From assembly GCA_964016885.1 (NCBI GenBank), contig OZ024740.1:72478001-72542000 (forward strand): a stretch of 64,000 nt of DNA, in the 5' to 3' direction. The notes under the pieces are model-generated. The model worked only from the letters and a program-made list of their open reading frames with translations. It was not told where the DNA came from and did not search any database. Source of the DNA: Eledone cirrhosa. Lineage: Eukaryota. This document shows, piece by piece, positions 457-58,148 of this stretch. Positions within the stretch are counted from its first letter, which is position 1. Every line of letters begins with the position of its first letter. A program made the translations under genes and the position numbers.

Positions 457-503
<47 letters not shown>

Positions 504-1243
504 GTATATATATATATGTATATATATATATATGTATATATATATATGTATATATATATATGTATATATATATATATGTATATATATATATGTATATATA
601 TATATGTATATATATATATGTATATATATATATGTATATATATATATGTATATATATATATGTATATATATATATGTATATATATATATGTATATATATA
701 TATGTATATGTATATATATGTATATGTATATATATGTATATGTATATATATGTATATGTATATATGTGTATATATATATATGTGTATATATATATGTATA
801 TATATATGTGTATATATATATATGTATATATATATGTGTATATATATATATGTATATATATATATGTATATATATATATGTATATATATATATGTGTATA
901 TATATATGTATATATATATATGTGTATATATATATGTGTATATATATATGTGTATATATATATGTATATATATATATGTATATATATATATGTATATATA
1001 TATGTGTATATATATATGTGTATATATATATGTGTATATATATATGTGTATATATATATGTGTATATATATATGTGTATATATATATGTGTATATATATA
1101 TGTGTATATATATATGTGTATATATGTGTCTATATATATGTGTCTATATATATGTGTATATATATGTGTATGTATATATGTATGTATATATGTGTATGTA
1201 TATCTATATATATGTGTATATGTATATATGTATGTGTATATGT

Positions 1244-1274
<31 letters not shown>

Positions 1275-1518
1275 TATGTATGTATATGTATATGTATATG
1301 TATGTATATGTATATATATATATATGTATATGTATATATATATATATGTATATATATGTATGTATATATATGTATATGTATGTATGTATATGTATATATA
1401 TGTATATATATGTATGTATGTATATATATATATATATGTGTATGTATATATGTGTATGTATATATATATATGTGTATGTATATATATATGTATATATGTA
1501 TATATATATATGTATATA
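1..1518. repeat. (TA)n/(TG) compound microsatellite field
   Basis: Almost pure TA dinucleotide with interspersed TG; the overlapping Y/I/M/C/V ORFs are artefacts. Confidence 0.98.
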
Positions 1519-4500
1519 TCATCATCAACGTTTAACGTCCGTGTTCCACGCTTGCATGGGTTTGGACGTAGTTCCACTTGAGGCAAGAGTGATTGTCCTA
1601 CTCGCATAGGACTGTCTGGCAGGTTTTCTACAGTTGGATGCCCTTCCTTACACCAGCCACATTTACAGTGTGGGTCTGGGAGGTTTTTACCGTGTTGCCT
1701 ACACGGCCACATTACAGCATGGACTGTGTGTTTTTTTGTCGTGACACCTACACGATCTCATTTGTTTCGGCCTGGATGGCGCGGCACCAACATAACTTTA
1801 CATAGAACGGGGTGGTGTGGATGGGGTGGTGGTGGTGGGACGGGGTGTATTTTGTTAGAGATGCCTACTGGCTGGAGTAGGTTTTACTATATATTTAGGT
1901 AAGGCGGGTCTTCTCTGTTACTGAGTACCGCCAAAGGTCTCGGTCCAGTGACATTGTCTTGGAGAGGTGTAAGTGTGTGATGTCGGAGTTTCTCCGCTCG
2001 TCCCAGGTTTTTCTAGGTCTGCCTATTCCGTGACTACCGTCTATCTTTATTGCCCTGCACTTTGTTATACAGCTATCGACTTTCATGCGCATCACGTGTC
2101 CATACCAACGTAGCCTTCTCTCGAGTAAACAACATCTGATCCCTCTTATCTTTAATTTTTTCCTTAGTTCGTTTATGCTTTGCCGTTCACGTATATTACT
2201 GTTACACATCCAGCGGAGCATGCAAGCTTCGTTCCTCTCTAGTCTGTGTATATCCTCTGCACACAATGCCCAGGTCTCACTGCCATGCAGCATTGCTGTT
2301 CGTATGCAGGCATCGTACAACCTGCCTTTCATTTTTAGGGAGAACCCTTTAGCAGCTAATAGTGGTATAAGCTCTCTGAACTTTTTCCAACCAGTTCTGA
2401 CTCTAGCTACAGTACTTTCAGAGCACCCTCCCCCACTGCTGATTTTATCGCCCAGGTAACGGAAGCTGTCCACTATTTCTATAGAACCCTCTGTGCAATT
2501 GAAAGAGCTAGTATTTTGTGGGCACTTGCTGCTACTTATTGCACCAGAACACCGGCCACATGTAAAATCTATGTTCTTAGTTAGCTTACCTGTGATCCCA
2601 CTACATCTTTTATGCACCCATACTTTGCATTTAGGACATAAAATGGAGTTTCTACCTACGCCTTTCCTACACACCAAGCACGACCATTTCCTAGAAGGGA
2701 CCGCCGCCTTGTTTTCTTTCCTACAAACTAGAACTTTGGTCTTAGCCAGGTTAATTTTAAGTCCTTTTGACTCTAGGCCGTGCTTCCATGTTTGGAATTT
2801 CTTCTCTAGCTCGGCCATTGATTCCGCTATGAGTGTCAGGTCGTCTGCGTATAGGAGTTCCCATGGGCAGCCTGTCTTGAACTCCTCTGTTATAGCCTGA
2901 AGGGCAATAATAAATAGTAGGGGGCTGAGAACAGAGCCCTGATGGACGCCAACTTTTACGCTAAACTCTTCACTATATTCGTTGTTAATTCTAACCTTGC
3001 TGACTGTTTCTTTATACATGGCTTGTATAGCCCTCACAAGCCATTCGTCAACGCCTAGTTTTCTAAGAGCCCACCAGATAATGGAGCGGGGGACTCTGTC
3101 GAAGGCTTTCTCCAAGTCGACAAACTTAAGTAGAGGGGTTTACCTTTAGCTAGGTACTTCTCCTGTAGTTGTCGTACTATGAAAAGAGCGTCTGTGGTAC
3201 TTTTGCCTGACACAAACCCGAACTGCATTTCATCTAGGTCAATTCTCTCTCTGATTAGTTGCGCTATTACATTTTCCGTGACCTTCATGACCTGGTCGAT
3301 TAATTTAATGCCTCTATAGTTACTCCTATCTAGGGCGTCTCCTTTACCCTTATAACAGTTAACGATGATGCTGCTATGCCAGTCCTTCGGAACAACCCCA
3401 TTCTGTACGACTTGGTTAACTATGCGGGTGACCATGGTGTGTCCCACCGTGCCAGATGCCTTCAGCATCTCAGCAACTATTTCCGAAGGCCCAGCCGCCT
3501 TACCCGTCTTCATATCCTTGATTGCCTTACTTATTATACTCCCCTCGACTAACACTGCTGGTCCCTCTATTGGGTCGATATGGGGGAGACTGTCTTTCTC
3601 CCATTTATTCTCATTTAGTAGCCTTTCATAGTGACACTTCCAAGCTACCTTCTTATCAGCGTCGGTGATGGCAAGTGTGCCATCGTCGTTTAGTACACAC
3701 TTCTCCCCGACAATATCACGGTTTTCCTTGACGCATTACCTAGCAATCCTGAACACCTCACGTTTTTGGTCATCGCGTTGTAGAACATGCTTGAACTTTC
3801 TTTCCTCAGCTTCCCTTCTTGCTAAGTACACTTGTCTCCTAGCTTCCCTCCTGGCCACTTGATAGTCTTCTCTACTTCCCCCATCCCGCCATACTTTCCA
3901 AGCCTGCTTTTTGGCCTTAATTGACCCCTCCACCTTACTGTTCCACCACCATGTTACTCTCCTCCTGCCTACAGGCCTGCTCCAGCCACAGACTTCGTCT
4001 GTCGCCAACAGCAGGTTTGCTTTCAGAAATTCCCACTCTCCCTCTATATTGTCCGACTCTAAATGTTCTTCCTTACTGTCGAAAGCATCAAGTAATATGC
4101 TTTGAAATTTATTCCTGGCTGTGGGGTCCTTTTGCTTCCATATTTTTCTCCTGAGGATAGTCCTCTTCTGCTGTCGAGTACGTCTCGTCCTGACTATGAG
4201 GTCTCTAATTATCAGTCTATGTTGGGAGGTGCATTCTTCATGGGGGAGGGATTTAGTGTTTACAACAGACACTCTGTCACGTCTTCTGGTAAGGATATAA
4301 TCTACTTGGCTTGTGTGTTCCCCGGATCTATAGGTGATCAGGTGATTGTCACGTTTTTTGAAGTTAGTGTTACAGATAGTTAGGTTATTTGCATCACAGA
4401 ATTCCAGGATTCTGGAGCCTTCCTCATTTCTAGTACCAAACCCATAGCCTCCATGGATTTCGTCGTAGCCGTCACAATGTTGTCCAACGTGACCATTTAG

Positions 4501-5310
4501 GTTGCCTGCAATAATTATATAGTCACTGTCGGATATTTGGGAGGTAGTTAGCATCAGTGTCTCATAGAATCTGTCTTTTATAGTGCCGGGCAGTCCGGAT
4601 TGGGGTGCGTACGCAGATATTACTGTCACCGTAGTTCTATTGAGGACAAGTCGTATTTTAATTATTCTGTCGTTCACTCTATTTACGTCTATTATCTTAT
4701 CTGCCCACTTTTCTGCTACCATGATTCCTACTCCACCCAGCCCATCGTCGTTTCCCACCCAGAAAAGCTTATAACATCGTTTTTTACCCTCAATGAATCT
4801 AGCAGACCCACCCCTCCACCTGGTCTCTTGAATACAACAAACATCGACCTCCTTACGTTCAAGCATTTCTACAACCTCGTTAGCGCAACCCTTTAGGCTG
4901 CCTACATTTATGGTACCAACTCTGAAGTTTTGGATTGCGTTTGGGGGCGGGGGGCGATGGGGTTATGTTAGCCGTCCGCGGTCGAAACAATGAGGAGTGC
5001 TCGCATTCTCGTCCAAGAGGTGAATTTGTCTTTATCTTTGGCATTGTCGCTGAGCGTCCAGATTTTTCTCTCTCTCCTCCACTCTCCAGGATTCCGCATT
5101 CCATCCATCCATCATATATCGAAAGGCAACCAGGCAAGCGATAGTATAGGCCTCTGGCTTCTGATTGGTCCGCGTAATAATAATACTGGTGATGCGTGGG
5201 GGCTCTGGCTTATGATTGGTCCACGTAATAGCAATGGTGGTGCGTGGGGGCGGGAGGGAGGGGTGTTGGGTAGCTAGATAGAAGGTAATGATTGAATGGG
5301 GTCCTTGCAC
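1519..5310 (-). mobile_element. RTE-clade LINE, near full length, frameshifted (LINE-a)
   Basis: ORF pieces 3736-4866 (APE: QETRW, SAYAPQ, SQHR), 3055-3555 and 1895-3115 (RT: [16 protein letters not shown]; RLRWYGHV, GRPRKTW). About 370 bp 3' UTR ending in an (ATG)n tail at ~1519. 5' boundary approximate. Confidence 0.93.
1895..4920 (-). pseudogene. Disrupted APE endonuclease / reverse transcriptase ORF of LINE-a with internal Cys/His finger
   Basis: Homologous segments lie in different frames, with breaks near 3120, 3735 and 4930. Confidence 0.88.
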
Positions 5311-7158: not shown

Positions 7159-10100
7159 ATGATGTTCCAGAACAATGTAAACGAGATAATTGCCAATTTG
7201 GGTTCTGGAACAAAAGAGATCATTGGCAATAAGGGCAGGGGCCCCAAGTTATCACAACCTGGGCCCGCCCGTCATCGTGCCATTGTAATAGAGCCAAACA
7301 GGGCATTTAGTCTTGGCTGCTGGAACGTACGGACGCTGCTTGACGGGGATTCTTTGGAGCGTCCTGAACGAAGGACCGCTCTTGTTGCGAAGGAGCTTCG
7401 ACGTTACGATCTTGACATCGTGGCTTTGTCTGAGACGAGGTTAGCTGGAGATGGTCATCTTGCGGAATTTTGTGGAGAATATACATTCTTCTGGAAAGGA
7501 AGAGATGAAGGAACCAGAAGAGAGGCTGGGGTGGGATTTGCTGTTAAGACTGTACTGGTGAATAAATTAGAAGAATTCCCAGTGGGGATTAGTGAGCGTC
7601 TTATGTCCATGAGAGTTCCGCTGGACAAGGGAAGATATGCTACCCTGGTGAGTGTGTATGCTCCAACTATGAATTCTGTCGATGAAGAAAAACTGTCCTT
7701 TTACCATGCCTTGAAAGGTGTTTTAAGAAATATCCCTCAGGCAGACAAAGTCATCGTGCTTGGTGACTTTAATGCTAGAGTGGGTAGGGATTTTAACACA
7801 TGGAATGTAATCGGAAGGCATGGGGTGGGAAAGTGTAACAGCAATGGTATGCTCTTGCTGCAGATGTGTGAGGAGCTAGATCTGTGTGTTACCAACACCA
7901 TGTTCCAACAAAAGAACAAATTCAAGACCACATGGATGCATCCTGCATCTAAGGAATGGCATCTTTTGGACTACGTCCTAGTCAGGATGCGTGACAGACA
8001 GGATGTGCAGTGTGTTCGTGTTCTTCGTGGAGCTGAGTGCTGGACGGACCACCGCCTGGTGCGCGCAAAAGTGAATCTAATCACCAAACGTAAAATCCGG
8101 GCTCCTGGTGTTACCCTGCCCAAAAGATTGAATGCTGCTCGTCTTAAGGATAAAAATGTGAAGAGGACATTGGAAGAAGAGATGCAGGCTGCAGATCTTG
8201 GTGAGGATTGGCCGACCCTTAAAAAGTCGGTTTATGATGTAGGCAGGCGTGTTCTGGGATTGGTGCAGAGAAAACATCAGGACTGGTTTAATGAGAATGA
8301 TGTACATATAGAAGACTTGTTGGCTGATAAGAGGCGTGCTCTGTCACGCTACTTGACGGCAAAACCACAGGAGAGGAATACGTTGCATGAGGAGCTCAGG
8401 GATGTAAAATCACGTGTTAGGCGGAGTCTTTCTCAGATGAAGGATCAGTGGTGGAGTGAGAAGGCTGGTGAGATACAAACTGCGTCTGATTGCAATAACA
8501 CAAAGCTGTTGTACAGTCTCTTGCGTGAGGTTTATGGACCGTCTTCTTCTCTGGTGACACCGATTCGCAGCAGGGATGGCAAAGAACTTCTTCGTGACTC
8601 ACAGGGAATTCTACGAAGGTGGCGAGAGCACTTTGATGATCTTTTGAATCAGCCGTCTGTCGTCAGTGAAGATTTCCTCAATCTCATTCCGGAAAGTCCT
8701 GTGAAAGTAGCTCTCGCAGAACCTCCGACACTTGTGGAGGTTGCAGTGGCTATTTCGAAGCTGAACAGTGGAAGATCTCCAGGTATGGATGGCATACATG
8801 CTGAGCTCCTACAATATGGTGGTGAGAGACTCCTGCAACATCTTCACTCTCTGTTTGGAAGGATATGGGCTAATGAATCCGTGCCTGAGGACTGGAGAGA
8901 TGCAGTAATGGTGGTCTTGTACAAGGGAAAGGGTAACAGGAATGATTGTGGGAACTACAGAGGTATATCATTGCTTTCTGTCGTGGGGAAAGTTTTATGT
9001 AGGGTGCTTCTGGACCGTCTGCTGACACACATTGCAGATTGTGTCCTTCCTGAAAGTCAATCTGGTTTTCGTGTTGGACGCGGCACTACTGATATGATCT
9101 TCTCAGCTAGACAGCTCCAGGAGAAGTGCATTGAACAGGGCTTGGATCTGTATCAGGTTTTTGTCGATCTGACAAAGGCTTTCGATACTGTCAACAGAGA
9201 TGCATTATGGAAGATTCTCCAGAAACTTGGTTGCCCTGATAAGTTCCTTGCTTTAGTTAGGTCTTTCCATGACGACATGAGGGCTTGGGTTAATGTCGGA
9301 GGTAACATGTCGGAGCCTATCTCAGTAAAAAATGGAGTGAAACAGGGGGATATTCCAGCACCGACCCTGTTTGCCATATACTTTGCAATGGTTTTCTGTG
9401 TTGCATTCAGGAATTGCGAGCATGGTGTTTACATCCGATATCGAACCTCAGGCAGCATATTTAACATCAGGCGCTTTGCTGCGAAGACAAAGGTATTTAC
9501 ATCGGTCATAAGAGACCTCTTGTATGCAGATGATTGCGATCTTGTAGCGCACACAGAGAGTGATATGCAGCACATTTTGAATGTATTTTCTGACGCTTGC
9601 ACTGCCCTGGGTTTGACTGTCAGTCTCAAGAAAACCGTCGTCATGTACCAACCTGCACCTGGTAGGCAGTACACTGAACCAAACATCTATGTGTATGGCA
9701 AACGACTTGGAGTGGTTGATCAGTTTGTCTACCTGGGAAGCACTGTCAATCGATACGGCAACCTTGACGGTGAAATCTCACTTAGGATTAGGAAAGCAAG
9801 TGATGCTTTCGGAAAGCTAGAAAGGCGACTCTGGGGTCGGCGAGACATATGCAGGAGGACAAAGGTAAGGGTGTACAGGGCATGTGTACTCTCTTGTCTT
9901 CTTTATGCCTGCGAGACCTGGGTCACATATCGACGCCACCTTAGGCAATTGGAGCGTTTCCATCAGATGTGTCTCAGACGGATACATGGCGTTCGCTGGA
10001 GGGACCACATCAGTGATGTCGAGATTTTGGAAAGCTCTATGTGTGACAGTATAGAAGCTCTTGTGCTTAAGCAGCGACTCCGTTGGAGTGGTCACCTTGC

Positions 10101-10704
10101 CAGGATGAAGGATTCTAGAATACCAAAACAACTCTTCTATGGAGAGTTGGTTAAAGGAAAACGACCGCCACATAAACCAAAAAAGAGGTATAAGGATTCC
10201 TTGAAGGCCTCTCTGAAAGACGCTAACATCTCTGCTGATACATGGGAAAATATTGCTGCTGATCGTAATAAATGGAGAAAGACTGTATATGAGGGAAAAG
10301 TTGCCTTTGAGGCATCTCGAATCGCACACGAGAAAGTAAAGCGGGACGTGAGGAAGGGTATTGCTGTTGCACTTCCAGACGGCGAGGGTCCTCCTATGTT
10401 TCTGACATGCAGCGTCTGTGCGAGACTCTGCCTAAGCAAAGCTGGACTCGAAAGTCATCTTCGCAGTCATAAAGTAAGACCAGTGGTTGACTACCAGGCT
10501 GCTGTTGGAGATGCTACTCATCATGCTTGCCAAACATGTGGTAGAGAATGTAAATCAGCAGGAGGACTCAAGCGACATGCAAAAGTACACGAACTCCAAC
10601 CACAGCCGACTATTCCCAGTAAATGTTTTGGTTGCCGACTCTGTGCAAGACATTTTAGATCATTGGCTGGGCTAAAAAGCCACATTCGATCGCAGCACTG
10701 TTAG
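7159..10704 (+). CDS. RTE ORF2-like protein, ~1181 aa: APE endonuclease, reverse transcriptase, three C2H2 zinc fingers
   Basis: No stops. APE motifs [25 protein letters not shown]; RT motifs [20 protein letters not shown]; fingers CSVC..HLRSH, CQTC..HAKVH, CRLC..HIRSQH. Start ATG inferred as the first Met after the poly-T. Confidence 0.93.
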
Positions 10705-11087: not shown

Positions 11088-11103
11088 TATGCCTGCGAGA
11101 CCT

Positions 11104-11288
11104 GGGCGGTGGATTGGCAGTATCGGTAGAGGGTCGGACGCCATGCTTTCCAGCATAGTTACGTCCCTTTACGATCTGAGTTCAAATCCCGCCGAGGTTG
11201 ACTTTGCCTTTCATCCTTACGGGGTCGATGAAATAAAGTACCAGTAACGCACTGGGTAATTGCTGGCCTTGTGCCTAAAGTAGAAACA

Positions 11289-11333
<45 letters not shown>

Positions 11334-11335: not shown

Positions 11336-11479
11336 ATTTTTTTTTTTTTTTATTTTTTTATTTTTTTATTGTGCAATGGCCATACTCGATAACGAGGGGG
11401 CAGCCATCATGTATGTATGTATGTATGTATGTATGTATGTATATTTGTAGATATATATATGTGTATATGTGTATATATA

Positions 11480-14400
11480 TCATCATCATCATCATCATTT
11501 TACGTCCGCTTTTCCCTGCTTGCAAGGGTGGGACGGGTCTTATTCAGCACAGCATCTCTCCACTCGTCACGGTCCCTCGTCATCTCCACCGTGAGCTTCA
11601 ATGATCTGAGGTCTGTTCTTACCACCTCCGCCCATGTTTTTCGTGGTCTACCTCTACCACGTCTTCTTTCAACTGGCATTTCCTGGCACTTCTTCACCCA
11701 TCGGTCATCCTCCATGCGCATCACATGTCCATACCACCTCAGTCTCCTCTCCCGTACACTACATTCTATCCCTCTCAGACACAGTTTCTCTCTCAACACA
11801 TTTATGCTGGGTCGTTCACGCACATTTACACTGCACATCCAACGGAGCATGCTTGCCTCATTTCTCTCCAGCCGTCGCATATCTTCTGCGGTTGCTGCCC
11901 ATGTCTCACTACCATGCAGCATCGCGCTCCTCACACAGGCATCATACAACCAGCCTTTCGTACGCAGGGAGAAACCCTTCTTCGTCAACAGAGGAAGCAG
12001 CTACCTAAACTTCTTCCAACCCGTCCTTATTCTAGATACTATGGCCTCGGAACACCCCCCTCCCATGCTAATCTGATCTCCTAGGTACCGGAATCTATCC
12101 ACCACTTCTATAGCGCCCTCTCGCATTTGAAAAATGTGTCTATCAGTGCGACTTCTACTGTCTAATTTCCCTGTACATCTACTGCATACATATTTCTCCC
12201 TACTTGTTAGTTTGCCTGCTATCCCGCTACATCTCTTGTGTACCCAGGACCTACATTGTGTGCATTTTATAGAATTTATGCCAGTTCCTTTTCTGCATAT
12301 CGAACATGGCCATTTCCCTGACGGAATCAGGGTTTTGTCCTCTTTTCTACTCATCAACACTTTTGTCTTAGCTAGATTTACTCTCAGTCCTCTTGCTTCC
12401 AACTGCTGTTTCCATAGCCGGAATTTATTCTCTAGCTCTTCTACTGATTCTGCCATAAGAGCCAGATCGTCAGCATAGAGAAGTTCCCATGGACAGCCAG
12501 TCTTAAACTCCTCTGTTATGGCTTGGAGGACTATAATGAACAAGAGCGGGCTGAGGACCGAACCCTGATGTACTCCTACTTGTATCTGGAATTCCTCACT
12601 AAACTCCATTCCTACCCTGACTTTACTGAGAGTACCTCTGTACAAAGTTTGCACTGTCCTTACAAGCCATTCCTCAACACCCAGCTTCCTTAGGGACCAC
12701 CAGATGACAGATCGGGGTACCCTATCAAAGGCCTTCTCTAGGTCAACAAAGGCTAAGTATAGTGGCTTATTCTTCTCTAAGAACCTCTCTTGCATTTGTC
12801 TCACCAAGAAGAGGGCATCTGTTGTACTCTTCCCAGGCACAAAACCAAACTGCATCTCATCTAGTTTGACCCTTTCTCTAATTAGTTGTGCTAAAATCCT
12901 TTCTGCCACTTTCATAACCTGATCTATCAGTTTTATACCCCTATAATTGCTCCTCTCCAAAGCATCCCCTTTACCTTTGTAGCAATTTATGAGAATACTG
13001 CTGCACCAGTCTTTGGGTATGACACCACCATATATAGCCTGATTGATGATGCGTGCAACCAGTTTAGTGCCTACGTCCCCTGATGCCTTCAGCATCTCAG
13101 CAACTATTCCCGATGGTCCGGCCGCCTTACCATTTTTCATTTCCCTAATCGCCTCTTGGACCCTATATTCGTCAATCTCAATAGCTGGTCCCTCTGTCGG
13201 ATCTACCAAGGGTAATTTCTCTCTCTCCCATTCGTTCTCCACATTCATCAGTCTCTCATAATGACATTTCCAGGCCTCCTTTTTCTGGTCATTCGTGACA
13301 CTAAGTACACCGGCATCATCCCGGACACATTTATCACCAACAACATCCTGATTTGCATTGACACACTGCCTTGCAATGTGGAACACCGCACGCCTCTGAT
13401 CTTCCCGTCGCAGAACATTGGCAAACCTCCTACTCCCTGCCTCCCTGCGTGCTAAGTACACCTGACGTCTAGCTTCTCTCTTAGTGGCTGTATATTCTTC
13501 CCTACTCCCACCCTTTTTCCAAGCCTTCCATGCTAGTCTTTTGTCTCTAATAGCCTTATCTACTGTGCTGTTCCACCACCAGGTCACTCTCTGTCTGGTT
13601 GGAGCTCTGCTCCAGCCACAGGTTTCATCAGTAGCCTGCAGCAAGTTGTCACGTAAGAACTTCCAGTTATTATCTATGTCATACGTCTCTAAATTGTCTT
13701 CTTTTTCGTCATATACATCTTGAAGGGCTTTCCTAAATTTGAATTTTAGTGAAAGGTCTTTTAGCTTCCAGACCTTTCTTCTCCACACCTTCCTATATGT
13801 CTCATTCCATCTCTTGCTTACTGAGATATCACTAACAACTAACCTATGCTGTGGGGTACATTCTTCCCCAGGGTATGCCTTGGTATTAGACACTATCTGC
13901 CTGTCCCGCTGCCTAACTAGCAGGAAGTCAATCTGGCTTATGTGCTCACCAGATTTGTAGGTTATTAGGTGATTGGCAGGTTTCTGGAAGTTTGTGTTGC
14001 AAATAGTCAATGTACTTGCATCACAAAATTCAAGAAGTCTCACTCCTTCTTCATTTCTTGAACCGTAACCGTGCCCACCATGTACCCCAGTGTAACCATC
14101 CTGGAGCTGTCCAACATGACCATTGAAGTCTCCTGCTAGCATAACGATGTCTCCGTCCTCTGTCATTGTGGTTGTTTGCAAAAGTTGCTCATAAAAGCAG
14201 TCTTTCTCATCTTTGCCTAGGCCTGCTTGGGGAGCATAGACCGAGATGATTGTCAGTCGTCTCCTACCTACAACTAATCTAAGCTTAATTATTCGATTAC
14301 TAACTCGAAATACCTCTATTGTCTTATTGATCCATTTCTCAGCCAGGAAAATGCCTACTCCCCCTAACCCATCATCCTTACCTACCCAGAATAGCTTATA

Positions 14401-14762
14401 GCTAAGACGCTTGCCTACGACTAGTCTCGCAGAGGCACCTCTCCATCTCACCTCTTGCACGCAGCACACATCCACCTGCCTTCTCTCCAGCATCTCCGCT
14501 ATTTCAGCAGATCTACCTCTGAGAGTGCCAACATTAAGTGTTGCAACTCTGAGATGCGACGTCTTCATATTTTGTTGTTGTTCCTATTTGTTGCAGTGCT
14601 TATAATCGTTTTGGCATTGATACACTGGTTGGATGCCCTTCCTAACACCAGCGCCACTTTACAACATGGACTGGGTGCTTTTATTTGTGCCACCAGCACT
14701 AGAGAGGATGTCTTACTAGACTCAAGGGCCCTCTCTACCCCTCCATTTTACAGCATGGTCAT
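11480..14762 (-). mobile_element. RTE-clade LINE, apparently full length (LINE-c)
   Basis: About 190 bp 5' UTR, APE-RT ORF running up to the (ATG)n tail. Confidence 0.93.
11500..14568 (-). pseudogene. APE-RT ORF of LINE-c with a single in-frame TAG at 12001-12003
   Basis: ORFs 12001-14568 and 11500-11988 are in the same frame. WKKFR* corresponds to WKKFRE in LINE-a (GAG>TAG). Confidence 0.9.
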
Positions 14763-14770
14763 TAAAAAAA

Positions 14771-15873
14771 AATATATATATGTGTATATATGTGTGTGTA
14801 TATATGTGTATATATATATGTGTATATATATATATGTATGTGTATATATATGTGTATGTGTATATATGTGTATATATATGTGTATGTGTATATATGTGTA
14901 TATATATGTGTATGTGTATATATGTGTATATATATGTATATATATATATGTGTATATATATGTATATATATATGTGTATATATATGTATATATATATGTG
15001 TATATATATGTATATATATATGTGTATATATATGTATATATATATGTGTATATATATGTATATATATATGTGTATATATATGTATATATATATGTGTATA
15101 TATATGTATATATATATGTGTATATATATGTATATATATATGTGTATATATATGTGTATATATATGTATATATATATGTGTATATATATGTATATATATG
15201 TGTATATATATGTGTATATATATGTATATATATGTGTATATATATGTATATATATGTATATATATATGTGTATATATATGTGTATATATATATGTGTATA
15301 TATATGTATATATATATATGTGTATATATATGTATATATATATATGTGTATATATATATGTGTATATATATGTGTATATATATATGTGTATATATATGTA
15401 TATATATATATGTGTATATATATGTATGTATATATATGTATATATATATATGTGTATATATATATATGTGTATATATATATATGTGTATATATATGTATA
15501 TATATATATGTGTATATATATGTATATATATATATGTGTATATATATGTATATATATATATGTGTATATATATATATGTGTATATATATGTATATATATA
15601 TATATATGTGTATATATATATATGTGTATATATATGTATATATATATATATATGTGTATATATATGTATATATATATGTGTATATATGTATATATATATG
15701 TATGTGTATATATATGTATATATGTATGTATATATATATGTGTATATGTATATATATATGTATGTATGTATATATATGTATATATATATGTATGTATGTA
15801 TATATATGTATATATATATATGTATGTATGTATATATATGTATATATATATATGTGTATGTATGTATGTATAT
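14771..15873. repeat. (TA/TG)n microsatellite field
   Basis: Directly visible. Confidence 0.97.
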
Positions 15874-16278
15874 GACCCCTTAGCCTTTGTCAAGGCAGAA
15901 TTCTAGAAGGAAAACTCTGATATAACACCTGCAACCCTGATGGTATCCAATGATGTTGACTTGTTCTTCTTTTTGGTAAATATTATCTTGGTTAAGAGAG
16001 TGGGACTGGCTTTGTGCAGTGCCTTTGCTCACTATAAAAGCTTCACGGCACAGGCATTGCTTTATATCTGGAGATCTCTGATCTCTCTGTACTTGTTGTC
16101 ACGTGGTACCATGGGCCCAGCACTATGTGTCAATAATTGTCACAGGTGTAGTGTTTGTACCAGAGTTTTCAAGTCACTGGCTGGACTAAAAAGTCACACT
16201 CGTTCAGCGCATTGGTAGGGGTTCTCCTACATGGATATAAAGTTGTGGCCGTACTCGAAAACGAGTTGGCAGCCACCA
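15874..16278 (+). mobile_element. Non-autonomous RTE derivative, 5'-truncated copy 1
   Basis: Near-identical to 19034-19433; retains [23 protein letters not shown] and the LINE-b-type 3' end. Confidence 0.85.
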
Positions 16279-16310
16279 TATATGTATGTATATATATATA
16301 TGTATGTATA

Positions 16311-16343
<33 letters not shown>

Positions 16344-16370
16344 ATGTATATATGTATGTATATACGTATG

Positions 16371-16404
<34 letters not shown>

Positions 16405-16635
16405 TATGTATGTATGTATATATGTATGTATGTATATATGTATGTATGTATGTATATATGTATGTGTATGTATATATGTATGTATGTATATATGTATGTA
16501 TGTATATATGTATGTATATATGTATATATGTATGTATATATGTGTATATATATGTATATATGTGTATATATATGTATATATGTATGTATGTATATATATA
16601 TGTATATATATATGTATATATGTATGTATGTATAT

Positions 16636-16669
<34 letters not shown>

Positions 16670-17218
16670 GTGTATATATATATATGTATGTATGTATATA
16701 TGTATATATGTATGTATATATGTATATATGTATGTATATATGTATATATGTATGTATGTATATATATATATGTATGTGTATATATATATATGTGTGTGTA
16801 TATGTATGTATGTATGTATATATATATGTATGTATGTATATATATATGTATGTGTGTATATATGTATGTATGTATGTATATATATATATATGTATGTATA
16901 TATATATATATATGTATGTATATATATATATATATGTATGTATATATATATATATATGTATGTATATATATATATATGTATGTATATATATATATATGTA
17001 TGTATATATATATATGTATGTATATATATATGTATGTATGTATATGTATGTATATATATATGTATGTATGTATATATATATATATATGTATGTATGTATA
17101 TATAGATATATATGTATGCATGTATATATAGATATATATGTATGCATGTATGTGTATATATATATATATGTATGTATATATATATGTATGTATGTATATA
17201 TATATGTATGTATGTATA

Positions 17219-17254
<36 letters not shown>

Positions 17255-17418
17255 TGTATGTATGTGTATATATATATATATATATATGTATGTATATGTA
17301 TATATGTATGTATATGTATATATGTATGTATGTATATATGTATGTATGTATGTATGTATATATATATGTATATGTATATATGTATATATATATGTATGTA
17401 TATATGTATGTATATATG

Positions 17419-17449
<31 letters not shown>

Positions 17450-17466
17450 GTATATATGTATGTATG

Positions 17467-17497
<31 letters not shown>

Positions 17498-17522
17498 ATA
17501 TATATGTATGTATGTATGTATG

Positions 17523-17556
<34 letters not shown>

Positions 17557-17584
17557 TGTATGTATGTATATATATATGTATGTA

Positions 17585-17620
<36 letters not shown>

Positions 17621-17741
17621 TGTATGTATGTATGTATGTATGTATGTATGTATATATATATGTATGTATGTATGTATGTATATATGTATATATATATATG
17701 TATGTATGTATGTATATATGTATATATATATATGTATGTAT

Positions 17742-17772
<31 letters not shown>

Positions 17773-17837
17773 TGTATATATGTATATATGTATATGTATG
17801 TATATATGTATATATATATATGTATGTATATATGTAT

Positions 17838-17868
<31 letters not shown>

Positions 17869-17881
17869 TGTATATATGTAT

Positions 17882-17912
<31 letters not shown>

Positions 17913-18833
17913 TGTATATATGTATATATATATGTATGTATATATGTATATATATATATGTATGTATATATGTATATATATATATGTATGTATATATGTA
18001 TGTATATATGTATATATATATGTATGTATATATGTATATATATATGTATGTATATATGTATATATATATGTATGTATATATGTATATATATATATGTATG
18101 TATATATGTATATATATATATGTATGTATATATGTATATATATATATGTATGTATGTATATATATATATGTATGTATATATGTATATATATATATGTATG
18201 TATATATGTATATATATATATGTATATATGTATATATATATATGTATATGTATATATGTATATATATATATGTATATATATATATGTATGTATATATGTA
18301 TATATATATATGTATGTATATATGTATATATATATATGTATGTATATATGTATATATATATATGTATGTATATATGTATATATATATATGTATGTATATA
18401 TGTATATATATATATGTATGTATATATGTATATATATATATGTATATATGTATATATATATATGTATATGTATATATGTATGTATATATGTATATATATA
18501 TATGTATGTATATATGTATATATATATATATATGTATGTATATATGTATATATATATATGTATGTATATATGTATATATATATATGTATGTATATATGTA
18601 TATATATATATGTATGTATATATGTATATATATATATGTATGTATATATGTATATATATATATGTATGTATATATGTATGTATATATATGTATATATGTA
18701 TATGTATGTATGTATATGTATATGTATATATGTATGTATATATGTATGTATATATGTATATGTATGTATGTATATGTATATGTATATATGTATGTATATA
18801 TGTATGTATATATGTATGTATATATATATGTAT
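16279..18833. repeat. (TATG/TA)n microsatellite field, ~2.5 kb
   Basis: Directly visible; begins at the 3' end of the derivative. Confidence 0.97.
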
Positions 18834-19433
18834 GTCAGGTCACCACTTGGTGCAATGGTAACATGTATTCCAGTACAACCTGTCCCATGGTCGGGTCGTT
18901 GGCGACTAAACTGGCAACCCCACTAAGGTTTCTTGGTGAGGAGGGTGACTTTGGACATCCTGCAGTACTAAAACTAAAACCTGTCAAAGGAGCTCTTAAG
19001 AGTCAATGGCCATCCAAAATCACCGGGAGAGATGACCCCTTAGCCTTTGTCAAGGCAGAATTCTAGGAGAAGGAAAACTCTGATATAACACCTGCAACCC
19101 TGATGGTATCCAATGATGTTGACTTGTTCTTCTTTTTGGTAAATATCATCTTGGTTAAGAGAGTGGGACTGGCTTTGTGCAGTGCCTTTGCTCACTATAA
19201 AAGCTTCACGGCACAGGCATTGCTTTATATCTGGAGATCTCTCTGCACTTGTCGTCGCATGGTGCCATGGGCCTAGCACTGTGTCAATAATTGTCACAAG
19301 TGTAGTGTTTGTACCAGGGTTTTCAAGTCGCTGGCTGGACTAAAGTGACATTTGTTCAGTGCATCGGTAGGAGTTCTCCTACATGGATATAAAGTAGTGG
19401 CCGTACTCGAAAACGAATTGGCAGCCACCACCA
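18834..19433 (+). mobile_element. Non-autonomous RTE derivative, longest copy (~600 bp)
   Basis: RTE-like 5' UTR segment (CTAGGAGAAGGAAAACTCTGA), zinc-finger remnant, 3' hairpin and (TATG)n tail. Confidence 0.85.
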
Positions 19434-19544
19434 TGTATGTATGTATGTATGTATGTATATATGTATGTATGTATATATATACGTATGTATTTATGTATGT
19501 ATGTATGTATGTATGTATGCATGTATGTATGTATGTATATATAT

Positions 19545-19958
19545 AACCTGTCAAAGGAGCTCTTAAGAGCCAATGGCCATCCAAAATCACCGGGAGAGAT
19601 GACCCCTTAGCCTTTGTCAGGGCAGAATTCTAGGAGAAGGAAAACTCTGATATAACACCTGCAACCCTGATGGTATCCAATGATGTTGACTTGTTCTTCT
19701 TTTTGGTAAATATCATCTTGCTTAAGAGAGTGGGACTGGCTTTGTGCAGTGCCTTTGCTCACTATAAAAGCTTCACGGCACAGGCATTGCTTTATATCTG
19801 GAGATCTCTTTGCTCTTGTTGTTACATGGTACCAGCACTATGTGTCAATAATTGTCACAAGTGTAGTGTTTGTACCAGAGTTTACAAGTTGCTGGCTGGG
19901 GTTCTCCTACATGGATATAAAGTAGTGGCCGTACTCGATAACGAGTTGGCAGCCACCA
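19545..19958 (+). mobile_element. Non-autonomous RTE derivative, 5'-truncated copy 3
   Basis: Matches 18978-19433 with small internal deletions. Confidence 0.85.
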
Positions 19959-19974
19959 TATATATATGTATGTA

Positions 19975-21470
19975 TCATCATCATCATCAACGTTGAACGT
20001 CCGTGTTCCACGCTTGCATGGGTTTGGACGGGGGTTTTCCCACTTGAGGCAAGAGTGATTGTCTTGCTCGCATAGGACTGTCTGGCAGGTTTTCTACAGT
20101 TGGATGCCCTTCCTAACACCAACCACATTTACAGTGTGGGTCTGGGAGGTTTTTACCGTGTTGCCTACACGGCCACATTACAGCGTGGACTGTGTTTTTT
20201 TGTCGTGACACATACACGATCTCATTTGTTTCGGCCTGGATGGTGTGGCACCAACATAACTTTACATAGAAAGGGGCTGTGTGGATGGGGTGGTGGTGGT
20301 GGGACGGGGTGTATTTTGTTAGAGATGCCTACTGACTGTAGTAGGTTTTACTATGTATTAAGGTAAGGCGGGTCTTCTCTATTACTGAGTACCGCCAAAG
20401 GTCTCGGTCCAGTGACATTGTCTTGGAGAGGTGTAAGTGTGTGAGGTCGGAGTTTATCAGCTCGTCCCAGGTTTTTCTAGGTCTGCCTATTCCGTGGCTA
20501 CCGTCTATCTTTATTGCCCTGCACTTTGTTATACAGCTATCGACTTTCATGCACATCACGTGTCCATACCAACGTAGCCTTCTCTCGAGTAAACAACATC
20601 TGATCCCTCTTATTTCTAATTTTTTCCTTAGTTCGTTTATGCTTTGCCGTTCACGTATATTACTATTACACATCCAGCGGAGCATGCAAGCTTCGTTCCT
20701 CTCTAGTCTGCGTATATCCTCTGCACACAATGCCAGGTCTCACTGCCATGCAACATTGCTGTCCGTATGCAGGCATCATACAACCTGCCTTTCATTTTTA
20801 GGGAGAACCCTTTAGCGGCTAATAGTGGTATAAGCTCTCTGAACTTTTTCCATCCAGTTCTGACTCTAGCTACTGTACTTTCAGATCACCCTCCACCACT
20901 CCCCAGGTAACGGAAGCTGTCCACTATTTCTATAGAGCCCTCTGCGCAGTTGAAAGAGCTAGTATTTTGTGGGCACTTGCTGCTACTTATTGCACCAGAG
21001 CACCGGCCACATGTGAAATCTATGTTCTTAGTTAGCTTACCTGTGATCCCACTACATCTTTTATGCACCCATACTTTGCATTTCTGACACAAAATGGAGT
21101 TTCCACCTACGCCTTTCCTACACACTGAGCATGGCCACTTCCCGGAAGGGACTGCTGCCTTATTTTCTTTCCTACAAACTAGAACTTTGGTCTTAGCCAG
21201 GTTAATTTTAAGGCCTGTTGATTCTAGGCGATGCTTCCATGTTCGGAATTTCTTCTCTAGCTCGGCCATTGATTCAGCTATGAGTATTAGGTCGTCTGCG
21301 TAAAGGAGTTCCCATGGGCAGCCGGTCTTGAACTCCTCTGTTATAGCCTGAAGGGCAATAATAAATAGTAGGGGGCTGAGAACAGAGCCCTGATGGACGC
21401 CAACTTTTACGCTAAACTCTTCACTATATTCGTTGTTGCCTGAAGGGCAATAATAAATAGTAGGGGGCTG
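19975..21470 (-). mobile_element. 5'-truncated copy of the LINE-a family
   Basis: Highly similar to 1519-2985, including the 3' UTR; ORF remnants 20329-20730 and 20886-21437. Confidence 0.93.
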
Positions 21471-26199: not shown

Positions 26200-27670
26200 T
26201 ATCTCATTTCCGACATCATCATCATCACCACCACCACACCTTTCCCCACTGCCATCATCACATTCTCGCCCCCGCCACCTCCATCATCACATCATCACAT
26301 TCTCGCCCTCCGCCACCTCCATCATCACATTCTCGCCCTCCGCCACCTCCATCATCACATTCTCACTCCTGCCACCTCCATCATCCTCTATCACCACCAC
26401 CATCACCACCATCATCCTCTATCACCATCACCACCATCATCCTCTATCACCATCACCACCATCATCCTCTATCACCACCACCACCACCATCATCCTCTAT
26501 CACCACCACCACCACCACCACCATCATCCTCTATCACCACCACCATCATCCTCTATCACCACCACCACCATCATCCTCTATCACCACCACCATCCTCTAT
26601 CACCACCACCACCATCATCCTCTATCACCACCACCACCACCATCATCCTCTATCACCACTACCACCATCATCCTCTATCACCACCACCACCATCATCCTC
26701 TATCACCACCACCACCATCATCCTCTATCACCACCACCACCATCATCCTCTATCACCACCACCACCATCATCCTCTATCACCACCACCACCATCATCCTC
26801 TATCACCACCACCATCCTCTATCACCACCACCACCATCATCCTCTATCACCACCACCACCACCACCATCATCCTCTATCACCACCACCACCATCATCCTC
26901 TATCACCACCACCACCATCATCCTCTATCACCACCACCACCATCATCCTCTATCACCACCACCACCACCACCATCATCCTCTATCACCACCACCACCATC
27001 ATCCTCTATCACCACCACCACCATCATCCTCTATCACCACCACCACCATCATCCTCTATCACCACCACCACCATCATCCTCTATCACCACCACCACCATC
27101 ATCCTCTATCACCACCACCACCATCATCCTCTATCACCACCACCACCACCACCATCATCCTCTATCACCACCACCACCATCATCCTCTATCACCACCACC
27201 ACCACCACCATCATCCTCTATCATCACCACCACCACCACCATCATCCTCTATCACCACCACCACCATCATCCTCTATCACCACCACCACCACCATCATGC
27301 TCTATCACCACCACCACCACCATCATGCTCTATCACCACCACCACCACCATCATCCTCTATCACCACCACCACCACCATCATCCTCTATCACCACCACCA
27401 CCACCATCATCCTCTATCACCACCACCACCACCATCATCCTCTATCACCACCACCACCATCATCCTCTATCACCACCACCACCATCATCCTCTATCACCA
27501 CCACCACCATAAACCTCTCTCTACCAGTCATTAGACCCTCATCACCACCACTACCACTACCACTACTCCACTGTCACCATCATCACCACTACCACTACCA
27601 CCACCCCACTGTCACCATCATCACCACTACCACCAGCCCCATTGTCACCACTATCATCACCCCACCATCA
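26200..27670. repeat. CAC/CAT-based minisatellite (CATCATCCTCTAT(CAC)n)
   Basis: Variable ~22-37 bp units; source of the poly-H/P/T ORFs. Confidence 0.95.
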
Positions 27671-33870: not shown

Positions 33871-36861
33871 TCTATATATATAAAACTGTGGTTGTCTGTC
33901 TGTCTATCGATTTTTGGCACACATCTCCTCTTAGAATCTCTCACGGAATTGCACCGAAATTGCTATACTTGTACATTGAGCCCTAGCGAAGACATTGGAA
34001 AAAAAAAAAATTTCAAATTGACCCACCCTATGTGACGAAATCGAATATAATGTATCGATTTTTGAGCGTAAGTTATCAGTTATTTCCCTTTGTTCTGTTT
34101 ACATTGAGCGTCTTACGTAAAAAATTACGCTGGCTTTAACAGTTGTCGAGCCAGCAAAATATTGACCTGCAAAATTCATCAGTTCGAACACTAAGCTTCC
34201 GTTTTGCTTCATTTCCATTTAAAAGCATTTTAAAACAATATTTTTACTTGAAAACAAGTCTATTTAAAGACTACGTAAAACAAGCAAATATTTCGTCGTT
34301 AGGCGTGCAGACAGACAGTCCTGCAGACAGACAGTCGTGCAGAGAGGTGATATAGGCGTGCAGACAGACAGTCGTGCAGAGAGGTGATATAGGCGTGCAG
34401 ACAGACAGTCGTGCAGAGAGGTGATATAGGCGTGCAGACAGACAGTCGTGCAGAGAGGTGATATAGGCGTGCAGACAGACAGTCGTGCAGAGAGGTGATA
34501 TAGGCGTGCAGACAGACAGTCGTGCAGAGAGGTGATATAGGCGTGCAGACACAGTCGTGCAGAGAGGTGATATAGGCGTGCAGACAGACATCTATATATA
34601 TATAAAACTGTGGTTGTCTGTCTGTCTATCGATTTTTGGCACACATCTCCTTTTAGAATCTCTCACGGAATTGCACCGAAATTGCTATACTTGTACATTA
34701 AGCCCTAGTGAAGACATCGGAAAAAAAAAAATTTCAAATTGACCCACCCTATGTGACGAAATCGAATATAATGTATCGATTTTTGAGCGTAAGTGATCAG
34801 TTATTTCCCTTTGTTCTGTTTACATTGAGCGTCTTACGTAAAAAATTACGCTGGCTTTCTCAGCGTTTAAAATGACATTAACACAATACACGAACAGACA
34901 GTTGTCGAGCCAGCAAAATATTGACCTGCAAAATTCATCAGTTCGAACACTAAGCTTCCGTTTTGCTTCATTTCCATTTAAAAGCATTTTAAAACAATAT
35001 TTTTACTTGAAAACAAGTCTATTTAAAGACTACGTAAAACAAGCAAATATTTCGTCGTTAGGCGTGCAGACAGACAGTCGTGCAGACAGACAGTCGTGCA
35101 GAGAGGTGATATACGCGTGCAGACACAGTCGTGCAGAGAGGTGATATAGGCGTGCAGAGAGGTGATATAGGCGTGCAGACAGACAGTCGTGCAGAGAGGT
35201 GATATAGGCATGCAGACAGACAGTCGTGCAGAGAGGTGATATAGTCGTGCAGAGAGACATCTATATATATATAAAACTGAGGTTGTCTGTCTGTCTATCG
35301 ATTTTTGGCACACATCTCCTCTTAGAATCTCTCACGGAATTGCACCGAAATTGCTATACTTGTACATTGAGCCCTAGCGAAGACATCGGAAAAAAAATAT
35401 TTCAAATTGACCCGCCCTATCTGACGAAATCGAATATAATGTATCGATTTTTGAGCGTAAGTGATCAGTTATTTCCCTTTGTTCTGTTTACATTGAGCGT
35501 CTGCGTGCAAAAATTAAAAAAATTACGCTGGCTTTCTCAGCGTTTAAAATGACAGGTTTTGTTTTTAGTCCTGCATATGTGTATACAATATATGTGTATA
35601 CAATATATCTATATATATAAAACTGAGGTTGTCTGTCTGTCTATCGATTTTTGGCACACATCTCCTCTTAGAATCTCACGGAATTGCACCGAAATTGCTA
35701 TACTTGTACATTGAGCCCTAGCGAAGACATCGGAAAAAAAATATTTCAAATTGACCCGCCCTATCTGACGAAATCGAATATAATGTATCGATTTTTGAGC
35801 GTAAGTGATCAGTTATTTCCCTTTGTTCTGTTTACATTGAGCGTCTGCATGCAAAAATTAAAAAAATTACGCTGGCTTTCTCAGCGTTTAAAATGACAGG
35901 TTTTGTTTTTAGTCCTGCATATGTGTATACAATATATGTGTATACAATCTATATATATAAAACTGTGGTTGTCTGTCTGTCTATCGATTTTTGGCACACA
36001 TCTCCTCTTAGAATCTCTCACGGAATTCCACCGAAATTGCTATACTTGTACATTGAGCCCTAGCGAAGACATCGGAAAAAAAAAATTTCAAATTGACCCA
36101 CCCTATGTGACGAAATCGAATATAATGTATCGATTTTTGAGCGTAAGTTATCAGTTATTTCCCTTTGTTCTGTTTACATTGAGCGTCTTACGTAAAAAAT
36201 TACGCTGGCTTTAACAGTTGTCGAGCCAGCAAAATATTGACCTGCAAAATTCATCAGTTCGAACACTAAGCTTCCGTTTTGCTTCATTTCCATTTAAAAG
36301 CATTTTAAAACAATATTTTTACTTGAAAACAAGTCTATTTAAAGACTACGTAAAACAAGCAAATATTTCGTCGTTAGGCGTGCAGACAGACAGTCGTGCA
36401 GACAGACAGTCGTGCAGAGAGGTGATATACGTGTGCAGACAGACAGTCGTGCAGAGAGGTGATATAGGCGTGCAGACAGACAGTCGTGCAGAGAGGTGAT
36501 ATAGGCGTGCAGACAGACAGTCGTGCAGAGAGGTGATATAGGCGTGCAGACAGACATAACTGATAATTTGGTTACGCTAATGTTTTTCTCTGCGTTGCAG
36601 TGTTTACATTTTCGATCTTTGTTAATAAATAACCAGTGCAGTTTCTATCCCCAGCATCCTCTTTTGTTATAACATTCAGGTTATCGTTATGTTTTCTTAA
36701 CTTCATAAGGCATAGTGTTGGTTGAGGGAATATTAATCAAAAACACCACATGCAAGTCTGCACAGTAGACACTACAGTTTTTAAGCCAAGAAAGAAACTT
36801 AACATTGTAACTTTAACACAGCTACTGAGCGACCCCGAGCAACGCCGGGCTTTACTGCTAG
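33871..36861 (+). mobile_element. Non-autonomous Helitron array: five 5' ends, one 3' end
   Basis: A|TC start at 33871; 3' GC hairpin CCCGAGCAACGCCGGG then CTAG|T at 36858-36862; no TSD; internal 37-bp minisatellite. Confidence 0.88.
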
Positions 36862-49805: not shown

Positions 49806-50146
49806 AATGTGTTCCACCTCTTTCACCATTCCCTATTTTCTAACATTCCTTTGTATATCTCAAGAATTCTTAGAAACATTAAGATTCACATCAATAACAC
49901 ATGTAAAAGATTAGGCTTTTTGTCTATATTTTTATAATATTCTTTGATTAGGTTTTGCTATTTGAAACTTGATAATTATATTTAATCAAAATCAACCTGT
50001 AGTAGCTGACTGGTGAAATTGTCTGCTAAATGCCATATAATTGGATGGTTAATCTGTTTTTTTCTATGAAAGAATGAAATAAATGGTTTGAATATGAATA
50101 GTCTATGAGAAGAAAAGCTATGTTCCTTGTTTTGAATGTTTTACAA

Positions 50147-57957: not shown

Positions 57958-58148
57958 AAATAATTGTTTCTATTTTAGGCACAAGGCCAACAATTACCCA
58001 GTACATTACTGGTACTTTATTTTATCGACCCAGTAAGGATGAAAGGCAAAGTTAACCTCGGCGGGATTTGAACTCAGATCATAAAGGGACGCAACTCTAT
58101 GCTTCAAAGCATGGTGTCCGACTCTCTACCGATACTGCCAATCCACCG
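57958..58148 (-). mobile_element. SINE family B
   Basis: Reverse complement of 11106-11292. Confidence 0.87.

What the first reader, a model, noticed from the sequence alone, without database searches (positions are those of the whole stretch)
15874..19958. Three-copy bipartite non-autonomous partner of the zinc-finger RTE
Seen: ~600-bp unit with no tRNA head, made of an RTE-like 5' UTR, a short linker, a remnant of the last finger ([23 protein letters not shown] versus LINE-b [23 protein letters not shown]), the hairpin 3' end and (TATG)n. Copies share the 3' end, have staggered 5' ends (15874, 18834, 19545), are co-oriented, and each follows a TATG/TA run. CAATGATGTT also matches the LINE-b start context (weak). 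Inference: an autonomous/non-autonomous pair that inserts serially into its own tails; possibly undescribed.
Basis: partly seen in the sequence, partly recalled or inferred. Interest (0 to 1): 0.72.

Follow-up and report, generated by a model that had tools for sequence, protein, structure and literature searches.

The report
Orphaned RTE deletion-derivative targeting microsatellites
The three repeats are copies of a very abundant 609-base jumping element made of the front and back ends of a full-length RTE retrotransposon; it sits mostly in TATG/TA microsatellites, likely also moves as pairs, and likely now borrows the enzyme of a still-intact sister retrotransposon because no intact copy of its parent was found; elements of this general kind are already known.

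Summary
The unit is real and genome-wide: about 45,000 copies (bootstrap 19,000-79,000), with sharp 5' and 3' ends. It is a bipartite non-autonomous RTE: nt 1-~430 plus the last 181 nt of a 4.06-kb zinc-finger RTE ('LINE-p'), joined at one shared junction without a linker. The parent is not the window's LINE-b (about 57% protein identity). No intact LINE-p was found (longest frame 863 of ~1172 aa), yet some unit copies are far younger than sampled LINE-p copies, so intact LINE-b, which shares the 3' stem, is the likely current mobiliser. The target is (TATG/TA)n in one polarity (73 of 89 copies versus 6% background), own tails only in about a fifth. Copies 2 and 3 recur as one dimer on another chromosome, so the trio need not be three insertions. 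Known kind (Kojima 2018); this family was not found in seven paper searches; Dfam/Repbase not checked. The scan noted similar elements and multimer export elsewhere in this genome.

The parts
14772..15871 (+). (TA/TATG/TGTA)n tract upstream of copy 1; likely target tract
15872..16278 (+). Copy 1, 5'-truncated at unit nt 207 (hotspot 190-210), 2.0% from family consensus
16147..16218 (+). Last C2H2 finger and stop codon of LINE-p, in frame only in copy 1; no start codon or ORF role shown
16279..18833 (+). 2.55-kb (TATG/TA)n spacer: tail/target of copy 1 and target tract of copy 2
18834..19430 (+). Copy 2, full length; member of a subfamily with a 7-nt deletion and shared substitutions
18834..19256 (+). 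5' part = LINE-p 5' UTR nt 1-432 (94% identical); first ~190 nt predicted to be a structured head shared by sister RTE families
19254..19430 (+). 3' part = last 181 nt of LINE-p; 19254-19256 is the junction overlap (2-3 nt microhomology)
19399..19430 (+). Terminal stem-loop, similar in LINE-p and LINE-b; predicted reverse-transcriptase recognition site
19434..19544 (+). ~110-nt TATG spacer, also present with the same marks in the second copy of the dimer on contig C2
19545..19958 (+). Copy 3, 5'-truncated near unit nt 150-160, with 8-nt and 35-nt deletions; this variant occurs at 5 loci on 4 contigs
7159..10704 (+). LINE-b ORF (1181 aa; APE endonuclease, RT, three C2H2 fingers), intact member of a very young family; sister of the parent and candidate current mobiliser
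11378..11409 (+). True 3' end of LINE-b, behind a ~480-nt microsatellite-rich 3' UTR; shares the stem with the unit but differs in sequence

Best explanation
The unit is a 609-nt internal-deletion derivative of a 4.06-kb zinc-finger RTE retrotransposon (LINE-p) that keeps the first ~430 and last 181 bases, has spread to tens of thousands of copies mostly inside (TATG/TA)n tracts of one polarity, and is likely copied through RNA by an RTE protein supplied in trans, first LINE-p's and now likely LINE-b's. Shown: origin from both ends of LINE-p; one junction and diagnostic bases shared by all copies (a self-propagating lineage); copy number; target context and polarity; 5' truncations and inversions; dimers with their spacer at unrelated loci; no intact LINE-p among the scored matches; many intact, near-identical LINE-b copies. 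Inferred: transcription from an internal promoter in the retained 5' UTR, with read-through across the tail into a downstream copy (dimer RNA); recognition of the 3' stem-loop; nicking in TA/TATG tracts and priming by pairing of the RNA's 3' UGUA/UA with the tract, which would give the polarity and lengthen the tract at each insertion; stalling of reverse transcription at the foot of the structured head (hotspot at nt ~198). At this locus copy 1 is one event; copies 2+3 are either one dimer insertion or the source locus of that dimer.
For: Full-length LINE-p copies L129, L134, L139 begin and end with the unit's ends. Unit vs LINE-p: 1-432 and 3882-4062. 39 of 44 full-length copies matched the junction pattern, all with the same join (5 were not matched by the pattern); diagnostic bases 44 of 44 T vs 25 of 26 G, and 42 of 44 T vs 20 of 26 C. 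12 junction-bearing or edge-cut copies in 80 evenly spaced 10-kb stretches, 0 LINE-p internal matches. 73 of 89 5' junctions in (T[AG])n vs 6.0% background; TATG over CATA in 74 vs 4 copies; 49 of 89 start at nt 1-3. Tail type tracks the upstream tract (rho 0.57, p 5e-9). Dimer 2+3 on C2 with the same spacer and deletions, other flanks; three 5'-truncated daughters of copy 3; a second dimer with a ~1-kb spacer at three loci, 0-1 differences in 602 nt, one 5'-truncated. LINE-p: 30 of 150 N-terminal matches belong to it, longest frame 863 aa; 150 listed C-terminal matches, longest 721 aa; 33 copies are 0.99-2.8% from consensus, nearest neighbours at least 1.6% apart. LINE-b: about 70 of 144 matches with frames of 1180 aa or more (counted by eye), 0-3 differences in 804 nt among 29 top copies.
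Against: Mean age of random unit copies (1.9%, n=11) does not differ from LINE-p (2.0%, n=33; p 0.42), so the bulk of the spread fits LINE-p alone; only the young tail (5 of 85 copies at or under 0.5%, and the dimers) needs another source. Searches score only the best candidates, and an intact LINE-p could be unassembled or polymorphic. LINE-b has its own bipartite derivative and a 3' end that differs at several positions. Target-site duplications were clear in few copies (shared-word test 12 of 89 vs 21 of 356 in controls). The upstream halves of dimers differ more than the downstream halves (18 of 597 vs 2 of 417; 6 of 607 vs 0 of 602), which simple dimer copying does not explain. 78 of the 89 copies came from similarity searches, not random sampling. 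Promoter, transcription and enzyme use were not tested.
Confidence: 0.75

Rival explanations
1. Same element, but always mobilised by LINE-p; an intact LINE-p exists outside this assembly or was lost very recently.
For: Unit and LINE-p 3' ends are nearly identical; mean divergences overlap; a single source copy would suffice.
Against: An active LINE-p should also leave young copies of itself: none of 33 is under 0.99% from consensus, and none of the matches has a whole frame.
Confidence: 0.3
2. One reading: the unit derives from LINE-b and targets its own tails specifically, building the array by three serial insertions.
For: 17 of 89 copies lie directly behind an own-family 3' end (18 with copy 2); arrays of 2-3 are common in the fetched loci; the window could be the source locus of the dimer, since daughter L227 shares an allele with it.
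Against: 5' part only 69% like LINE-b's UTR but 94% like LINE-p's. 64 of 89 follow tracts with no pattern-matched own or LINE-b tail; 0 of 11 random junction-bearing copies follow an own tail (two short 3' pieces at L166 that do were excluded by the filter). Copies 2+3 recur as a unit.
Confidence: 0.1
3. The dimers and arrays spread at the DNA level (segmental duplication, gene conversion or slippage between microsatellites), not through RNA.
For: Mosaic upstream halves; some locus pairs are plain duplications (L005/L006, L009/L010, L013/L014).
Against: Shared sequence stops at the element's ends, on different chromosomes, with 5'-truncated versions and unrelated flanks.
Confidence: 0.15

Closest known systems
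Bipartite ORF-less non-autonomous RTE LINEs (Bov-A, RTESINE1/2, WALLSI3, MAR4_MD, RTE-N2_Lch; Kojima 2018, PMC5786205, parts 1-4 of 5 read)
   Same: 5' end and 3' end of an RTE joined by internal deletion, no small-RNA head, no ORF; RTE-N2_Lch is 5' 214 bp plus 3' 70 bp of RTE-4_Lch. Pol II transcription and dependence on the parent are proposed there.
   Different: Longer, includes the last coding finger; strong polar preference for TATG/TA tracts; parent without an intact copy here; these points are not discussed in the parts read.
[quoted passage not shown]
   Same: A dimer of the bipartite unit moves as one element.
   Different: Here several independent low-copy dimers with spacers of 0.1-1 kb, not one fixed family.
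RTE-2_OV of Octopus vulgaris (Petrosino 2022, PMC9115989; passages read, 8 of 12 supplements searched)
   Same: Single-ORF RTE with endonuclease, RT and C2H2 finger, microsatellite-rich 3' UTR, like LINE-b and LINE-p.
   Different: ORF of 1109 aa vs 1181/1172 here; sequence identity not tested; four motifs gave no hit in the files searched; no non-autonomous partner in the passages seen.
RTE-generated microsatellite families in Lepidoptera (Tay 2010, PMC2887409; abstract only)
   Same: RTE 3' ends tied to simple repeats.
   Different: There the elements generate repeats at the 3' end; here the 5' junction also lies in the tract, pointing to the tract as target.

Membership tests
Bipartite non-autonomous RTE LINE | 5' part is the 5' end of an autonomous LINE | tested here: met
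   LINE-p nt 1-432, 94% identical to copy 2; same first base in L129, L134, L138, L139
Bipartite non-autonomous RTE LINE | 3' part is the extreme 3' end of the same LINE with a microsatellite tail | tested here: met
   LINE-p nt 3882-4062, same last base in L091-L120
Bipartite non-autonomous RTE LINE | No coding capacity; deletion removes the ORF | tested here: met
   Join lies ~50 nt before the ATG (LINE-p nt 484) and ~120 nt before the stop
Bipartite non-autonomous RTE LINE | Amplified as its own family, not repeated one-off deletions | tested here: met
   One junction, diagnostic bases, ~45,000 copies
Bipartite non-autonomous RTE LINE | Parent belongs to the RTE clade by RT phylogeny | tested here: inconclusive
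   Single ORF with APE and RT, short UTRs and simple-repeat tail fit RTE (recalled clade features); homologues found carry no clade names; no tree with named references was built
Bipartite non-autonomous RTE LINE | Mobilised in trans by the LINE protein; Pol II transcript | not testable with these tools
   Only indirect marks: 5' truncation, inversion (L055, L166), some long duplications
tRNA/5S/7SL-headed SINE | Small-RNA-derived head | tested here: not met
   ARAGORN 0 genes; no such Rfam match; head is the LINE's own 5' end
LINE with 5' self-cleaving ribozyme (HDV-like or twister) | Ribozyme fold at the 5' end | tested here: inconclusive
   No Rfam ribozyme hit; own HDV-like and hammerhead descriptors found nothing; head helices 94% paired but only 3 of 29 pairs with two-sided change, 149 of 500 shuffles as high; a dimer moved with an intact internal 5' end
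Microsatellite-specific non-LTR element | Both junctions in one repeat type, fixed polarity | tested here: inconclusive
   73 of 89 (9 of 11 random) in (T[AG])n, polarity 74 vs 4, 40 of 49 full-length copies preceded by TAT; a strong preference, not strict; LINE-p 12 of 27 rows (with duplicates and rearranged copies) and LINE-b 4 of 7

The most novel reading that the evidence does not exclude
A deletion derivative outgrew its parent RTE about a thousand-fold in full-length copies, outlived it, and switched to the sister LINE-b through a shared 3' stem; because the whole zinc-finger RTE group nicks and primes in TATG/TA tracts and every insertion duplicates and extends such a tract, the family builds its own targets, stacks into arrays and exports them as multimers with up to 1 kb of microsatellite, a feed-forward source of this genome's very long simple repeats.
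Probability: 0.4. Interest if true: 0.62.

Novelty: new member of a known kind. Interest (0 to 1): 0.42.

Why it matters
It adds a large family (about 0.7% of the genome by a rough estimate) to a known class, with the parent recovered base for base. If the partner switch holds, the set LINE-p, LINE-b and their two bipartite derivatives is a natural test of how strict 3'-end recognition is in RTEs and of whether a non-autonomous parasite can outlast its host LINE. The polar preference for TATG/TA tracts and the moving of dimers with their spacers offer a testable route by which long microsatellites and retroposon arrays grow and spread.

Tried and rejected
LINE-b as parent: rejected. CAATGATGTT as start-context homology: rejected. 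Separate linker: rejected. tRNA head: none. Twister, HDV-like, hammerhead and hairpin ribozyme readings of the head were considered by eye and by simple descriptors; none fitted; Ruminski 2011 was not held. A subfamily master starting at nt ~198: rejected, those copies share no private alleles and daughters of copy 3 stopped there independently. Protein search with the 46-aa finger piece found nothing. Expression: no RNA holder listed; four contig runs were laid and cannot show starts, strand or level, and their depth was not used as copy number. Automated TSD test was weak. One search timed out; one search stopped after 33 of 35 LINE-p copies (two too short for the neighbour test were left out); the first extraction of the second family failed and was redone. 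Look-up of earlier findings by sequence gave nothing. Paper searches showed no description of this family; four supplements of PMC9115989 (files 5-8) and the repeat library of PMC13282606 were not seen and may hold it.

Full report
Observation. The window holds three co-oriented copies of one unit at 15872-16278, 18834-19430 and about 19545-19958, 95-96% identical in pairs, each behind a TATG/TA run and ending at the same base. There is no tRNA gene in the window and no Rfam match at gathering score. The host is not given; a 3.0-Gb animal genome with zinc-finger RTEs suggests an octopod, which is my inference from recall and was not tested.

It is a genome-wide family. A search with copy 2 gave 5540 candidates; the 40 scored all matched over nearly the whole length at 95-100% on many contigs. 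Their ends are sharp. In 80 evenly spaced 10-kb stretches I found 12 copies that carry the junction or are cut by an edge and 4 short 3' pieces that could also be LINE-p ends: about 45,000 copies (bootstrap 95% range 19,000-79,000), or 60,000 (22,000-109,000) with the short pieces. The same sample held 3 LINE-b ORF matches and no internal LINE-p match.

The parent is a sister of LINE-b. One of 30 loci fetched with the 3' part (L047) continued upstream into coding sequence 44% identical to LINE-b. That sequence led to 30 more loci, all ending in the unit's 3' end. Extending 11 of them gave three full-length 4.0-4.1-kb copies and one internally deleted copy that begin with the unit's first base. 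This LINE-p has one ORF from nt 484 to 4002, about 57% identical to LINE-b's. The unit is LINE-p nt 1-432 joined to nt 3882-4062 over a 2-3-nt overlap; there is no linker. 39 of 44 full-length copies matched my junction pattern, all with the same join, and diagnostic bases separate unit from LINE-p (44 of 44 vs 25 of 26; 42 of 44 vs 20 of 26), so the unit copies itself as a lineage. LINE-b's 5' UTR matches the unit at only 69% over about 210 nt, its real 3' end lies about 480 nt behind the stop, and it has its own bipartite derivative.

Target. Of 89 junction-bearing copies with both flanks (11 from the random sample, 78 from similarity searches), 73 have a 5' junction in (T[AG])n against 6.0% of random 20-mers; TATG outnumbers CATA upstream in 74 copies and the reverse in 4; the random subset gives 9 of 11. 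17 follow an own-family 3' end (18 with copy 2), 7 a LINE-b-type end by pattern (three more sister-type ends by eye), 64 neither by pattern; in the random subset none follows an own tail, though two short 3' pieces at L166, removed by the junction filter, do. The tail's repeat type tracks the upstream tract (rho 0.57; Fisher p 2e-4), so the 'tail' is likely in large part target DNA. Duplications of unique sequence were visible in few cases (L011 about 40 nt, L220 and L028 11 nt; about 55 nt by eye at LINE-p copy L047) and the automated test was weak (12 of 89 vs 21 of 356). Whether own tails are preferred over equal tracts was not computed. Co-orientation in the window follows from the polarity rule.

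The trio is not necessarily three insertions. Copy 2, the 110-nt spacer and copy 3 recur on contig C2 with the same spacer marks and the same deletions but other flanks. The copy-3 deletion junction occurs at 5 loci: two dimers and three 5'-truncated singles with unrelated flanks. Copy 3 lacks the first 150 nt, so its spread likely relies on a transcript from copy 2. A second dimer with a spacer of about 1 kb sits at three loci on three contigs, one 5'-truncated, with 0-1 differences in 602 nt of the downstream copy. Against a simple reading, upstream halves differ more than downstream halves (18 of 597 vs 2 of 417; 6 of 607 vs 0 of 602) and the C2 upstream copy looks mosaic; template switching or joining to a resident copy could explain this but was not tested. 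The window may be the dimer's source or a daughter: the copy-2 3' signature exists at only these two loci and daughter L227 shares one allele with the window.

5' ends. 49 of 89 copies start at nt 1-3; 13 of the 40 truncated ones start at nt 190-210 (p 4e-8 against a uniform spread), without shared private alleles, and three daughters of copy 3 stop there too. Copy 1 belongs to this class. The first 190 nt are conserved among sister families and predicted to fold; 94% of cells pair but two-sided changes are few and not above shuffles. No known ribozyme was recognised. A stall of reverse transcription at the foot of this head is my best guess; a second start or a cut site are not excluded.

Who moves it. 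Random unit copies average 1.9% from consensus (n=11) and LINE-p copies 2.0% (n=33; p 0.42): they spread together. But no LINE-p copy is under 0.99% and nearest neighbours differ by at least 1.6%, while 5 of 85 unit copies are at or under 0.5% and dimers differ by 0-4 bases in 360-600. An N-terminal search ran through the LINE-p family (30 of 150 matches at 74% or more, then a drop to 54-58%); the longest frame was 863 aa of about 1172; 150 listed C-terminal matches reached 721 aa. LINE-b has about 70 frames of 1180 aa or more among 144 matches (counted by eye) and 0-3 differences in 804 nt among 29 top copies (chosen as best hits). Its last 32 nt form a similar stem. Cross-mobilisation by LINE-b is therefore likely for the youngest copies (my odds about 55%), but is inferred from ages only.

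Comparison with the known. Kojima 2018 (PMC5786205; parts 1-4 of 5 read) describes ORF-less bipartite derivatives of RTE, Ingi, Vingi and R2, names Bov-A, RTESINE1/2, WALLSI3 and RTE-N2_Lch, and Bov-A2 as a dimer; the unit meets every feature I could test. Petrosino 2022 (PMC9115989; passages; 8 of 12 supplements) reports an octopus RTE with a C2H2 finger and microsatellite 3' UTR. Bonar 2026 (PMC13282606; part 1 of 3 and one supplement) counts active RTE and 893 unclassified SINE families without describing this one in what I saw. Liu 2021 (PMC8501958; passages) shows twister ribozymes at the 5' end of the RTE Perere-3. Tay 2010 (PMC2887409; abstract) links RTE 3' ends to microsatellites. Linquist 2026 (PMC12988792; passages) adds nothing on this family. 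Searches showed no description of it; Dfam and Repbase could not be searched. Earlier unreviewed notes of this scan report bipartite RTE derivatives and multimer export elsewhere in this genome; I saw the dimers, before that look-up, and could not confirm that they concern the same family.

Verdict. Observation confirmed; interpretation partly right. New member of a known kind; the added value is the recovered parent, its apparent loss, the polar microsatellite preference and the moving dimers. Interest 0.42.

Noticed in passing
L225:7744-8280; L223; L023; L013; L146; L176; L213: A second bipartite family: the same kind of head, LINE-b's inner 5' UTR (91% over 293 nt) and LINE-b's last 43 nt (95%); several copies in the 800-kb random sample; L223 has an 84-nt tandem repeat inside.
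   Followed up: partly
L140, L143, L144 (5' UTR of LINE-b): The young LINE-b form has a 1.6-kb 5' UTR whose first ~1.2 kb is unrelated, repeat-rich sequence in place of the head that its derivative and sister families keep; possibly a captured promoter.
   Followed up: no
window 1895-4962 (-), 12001-14583 (-), 20329-21450 (-), 44999-45457 (-), 39039-39368 (-): Copies of another single-ORF LINE with a PHD finger inside the RT region (Pfam PHD E 1e-5); the fragment behind copy 3 lies tail to tail with it.
   Followed up: no
L037:1942, L146:5629, L158:6815, L049, L040, L132: A third sister head/UTR type, about 70-83% like the unit, and a third tail type seen at L040 and L180.
   Followed up: no
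window 11090-11290: An insertion in LINE-b's 3' UTR: a short piece like LINE-b coding sequence fused to a fragment of another short repeat that has an inverted copy at 57959-58096.
   Followed up: no
window 35550-35575 and 35894-35919: A 26-nt exact piece of the unit's head (nt 129-154) on the minus strand inside a 344-bp tandem repeat.
   Followed up: no
window 58980-63991, 48349-49821, 51011-52169, 26398-27526: Large tandem arrays with periods 23, 33, 61 and 25.
   Followed up: no
runs X1, X3, X6, X7: The unit is held by contigs of runs coded as four different organisms, so it is not confined to this assembly; run types are not on record.
   Followed up: partly
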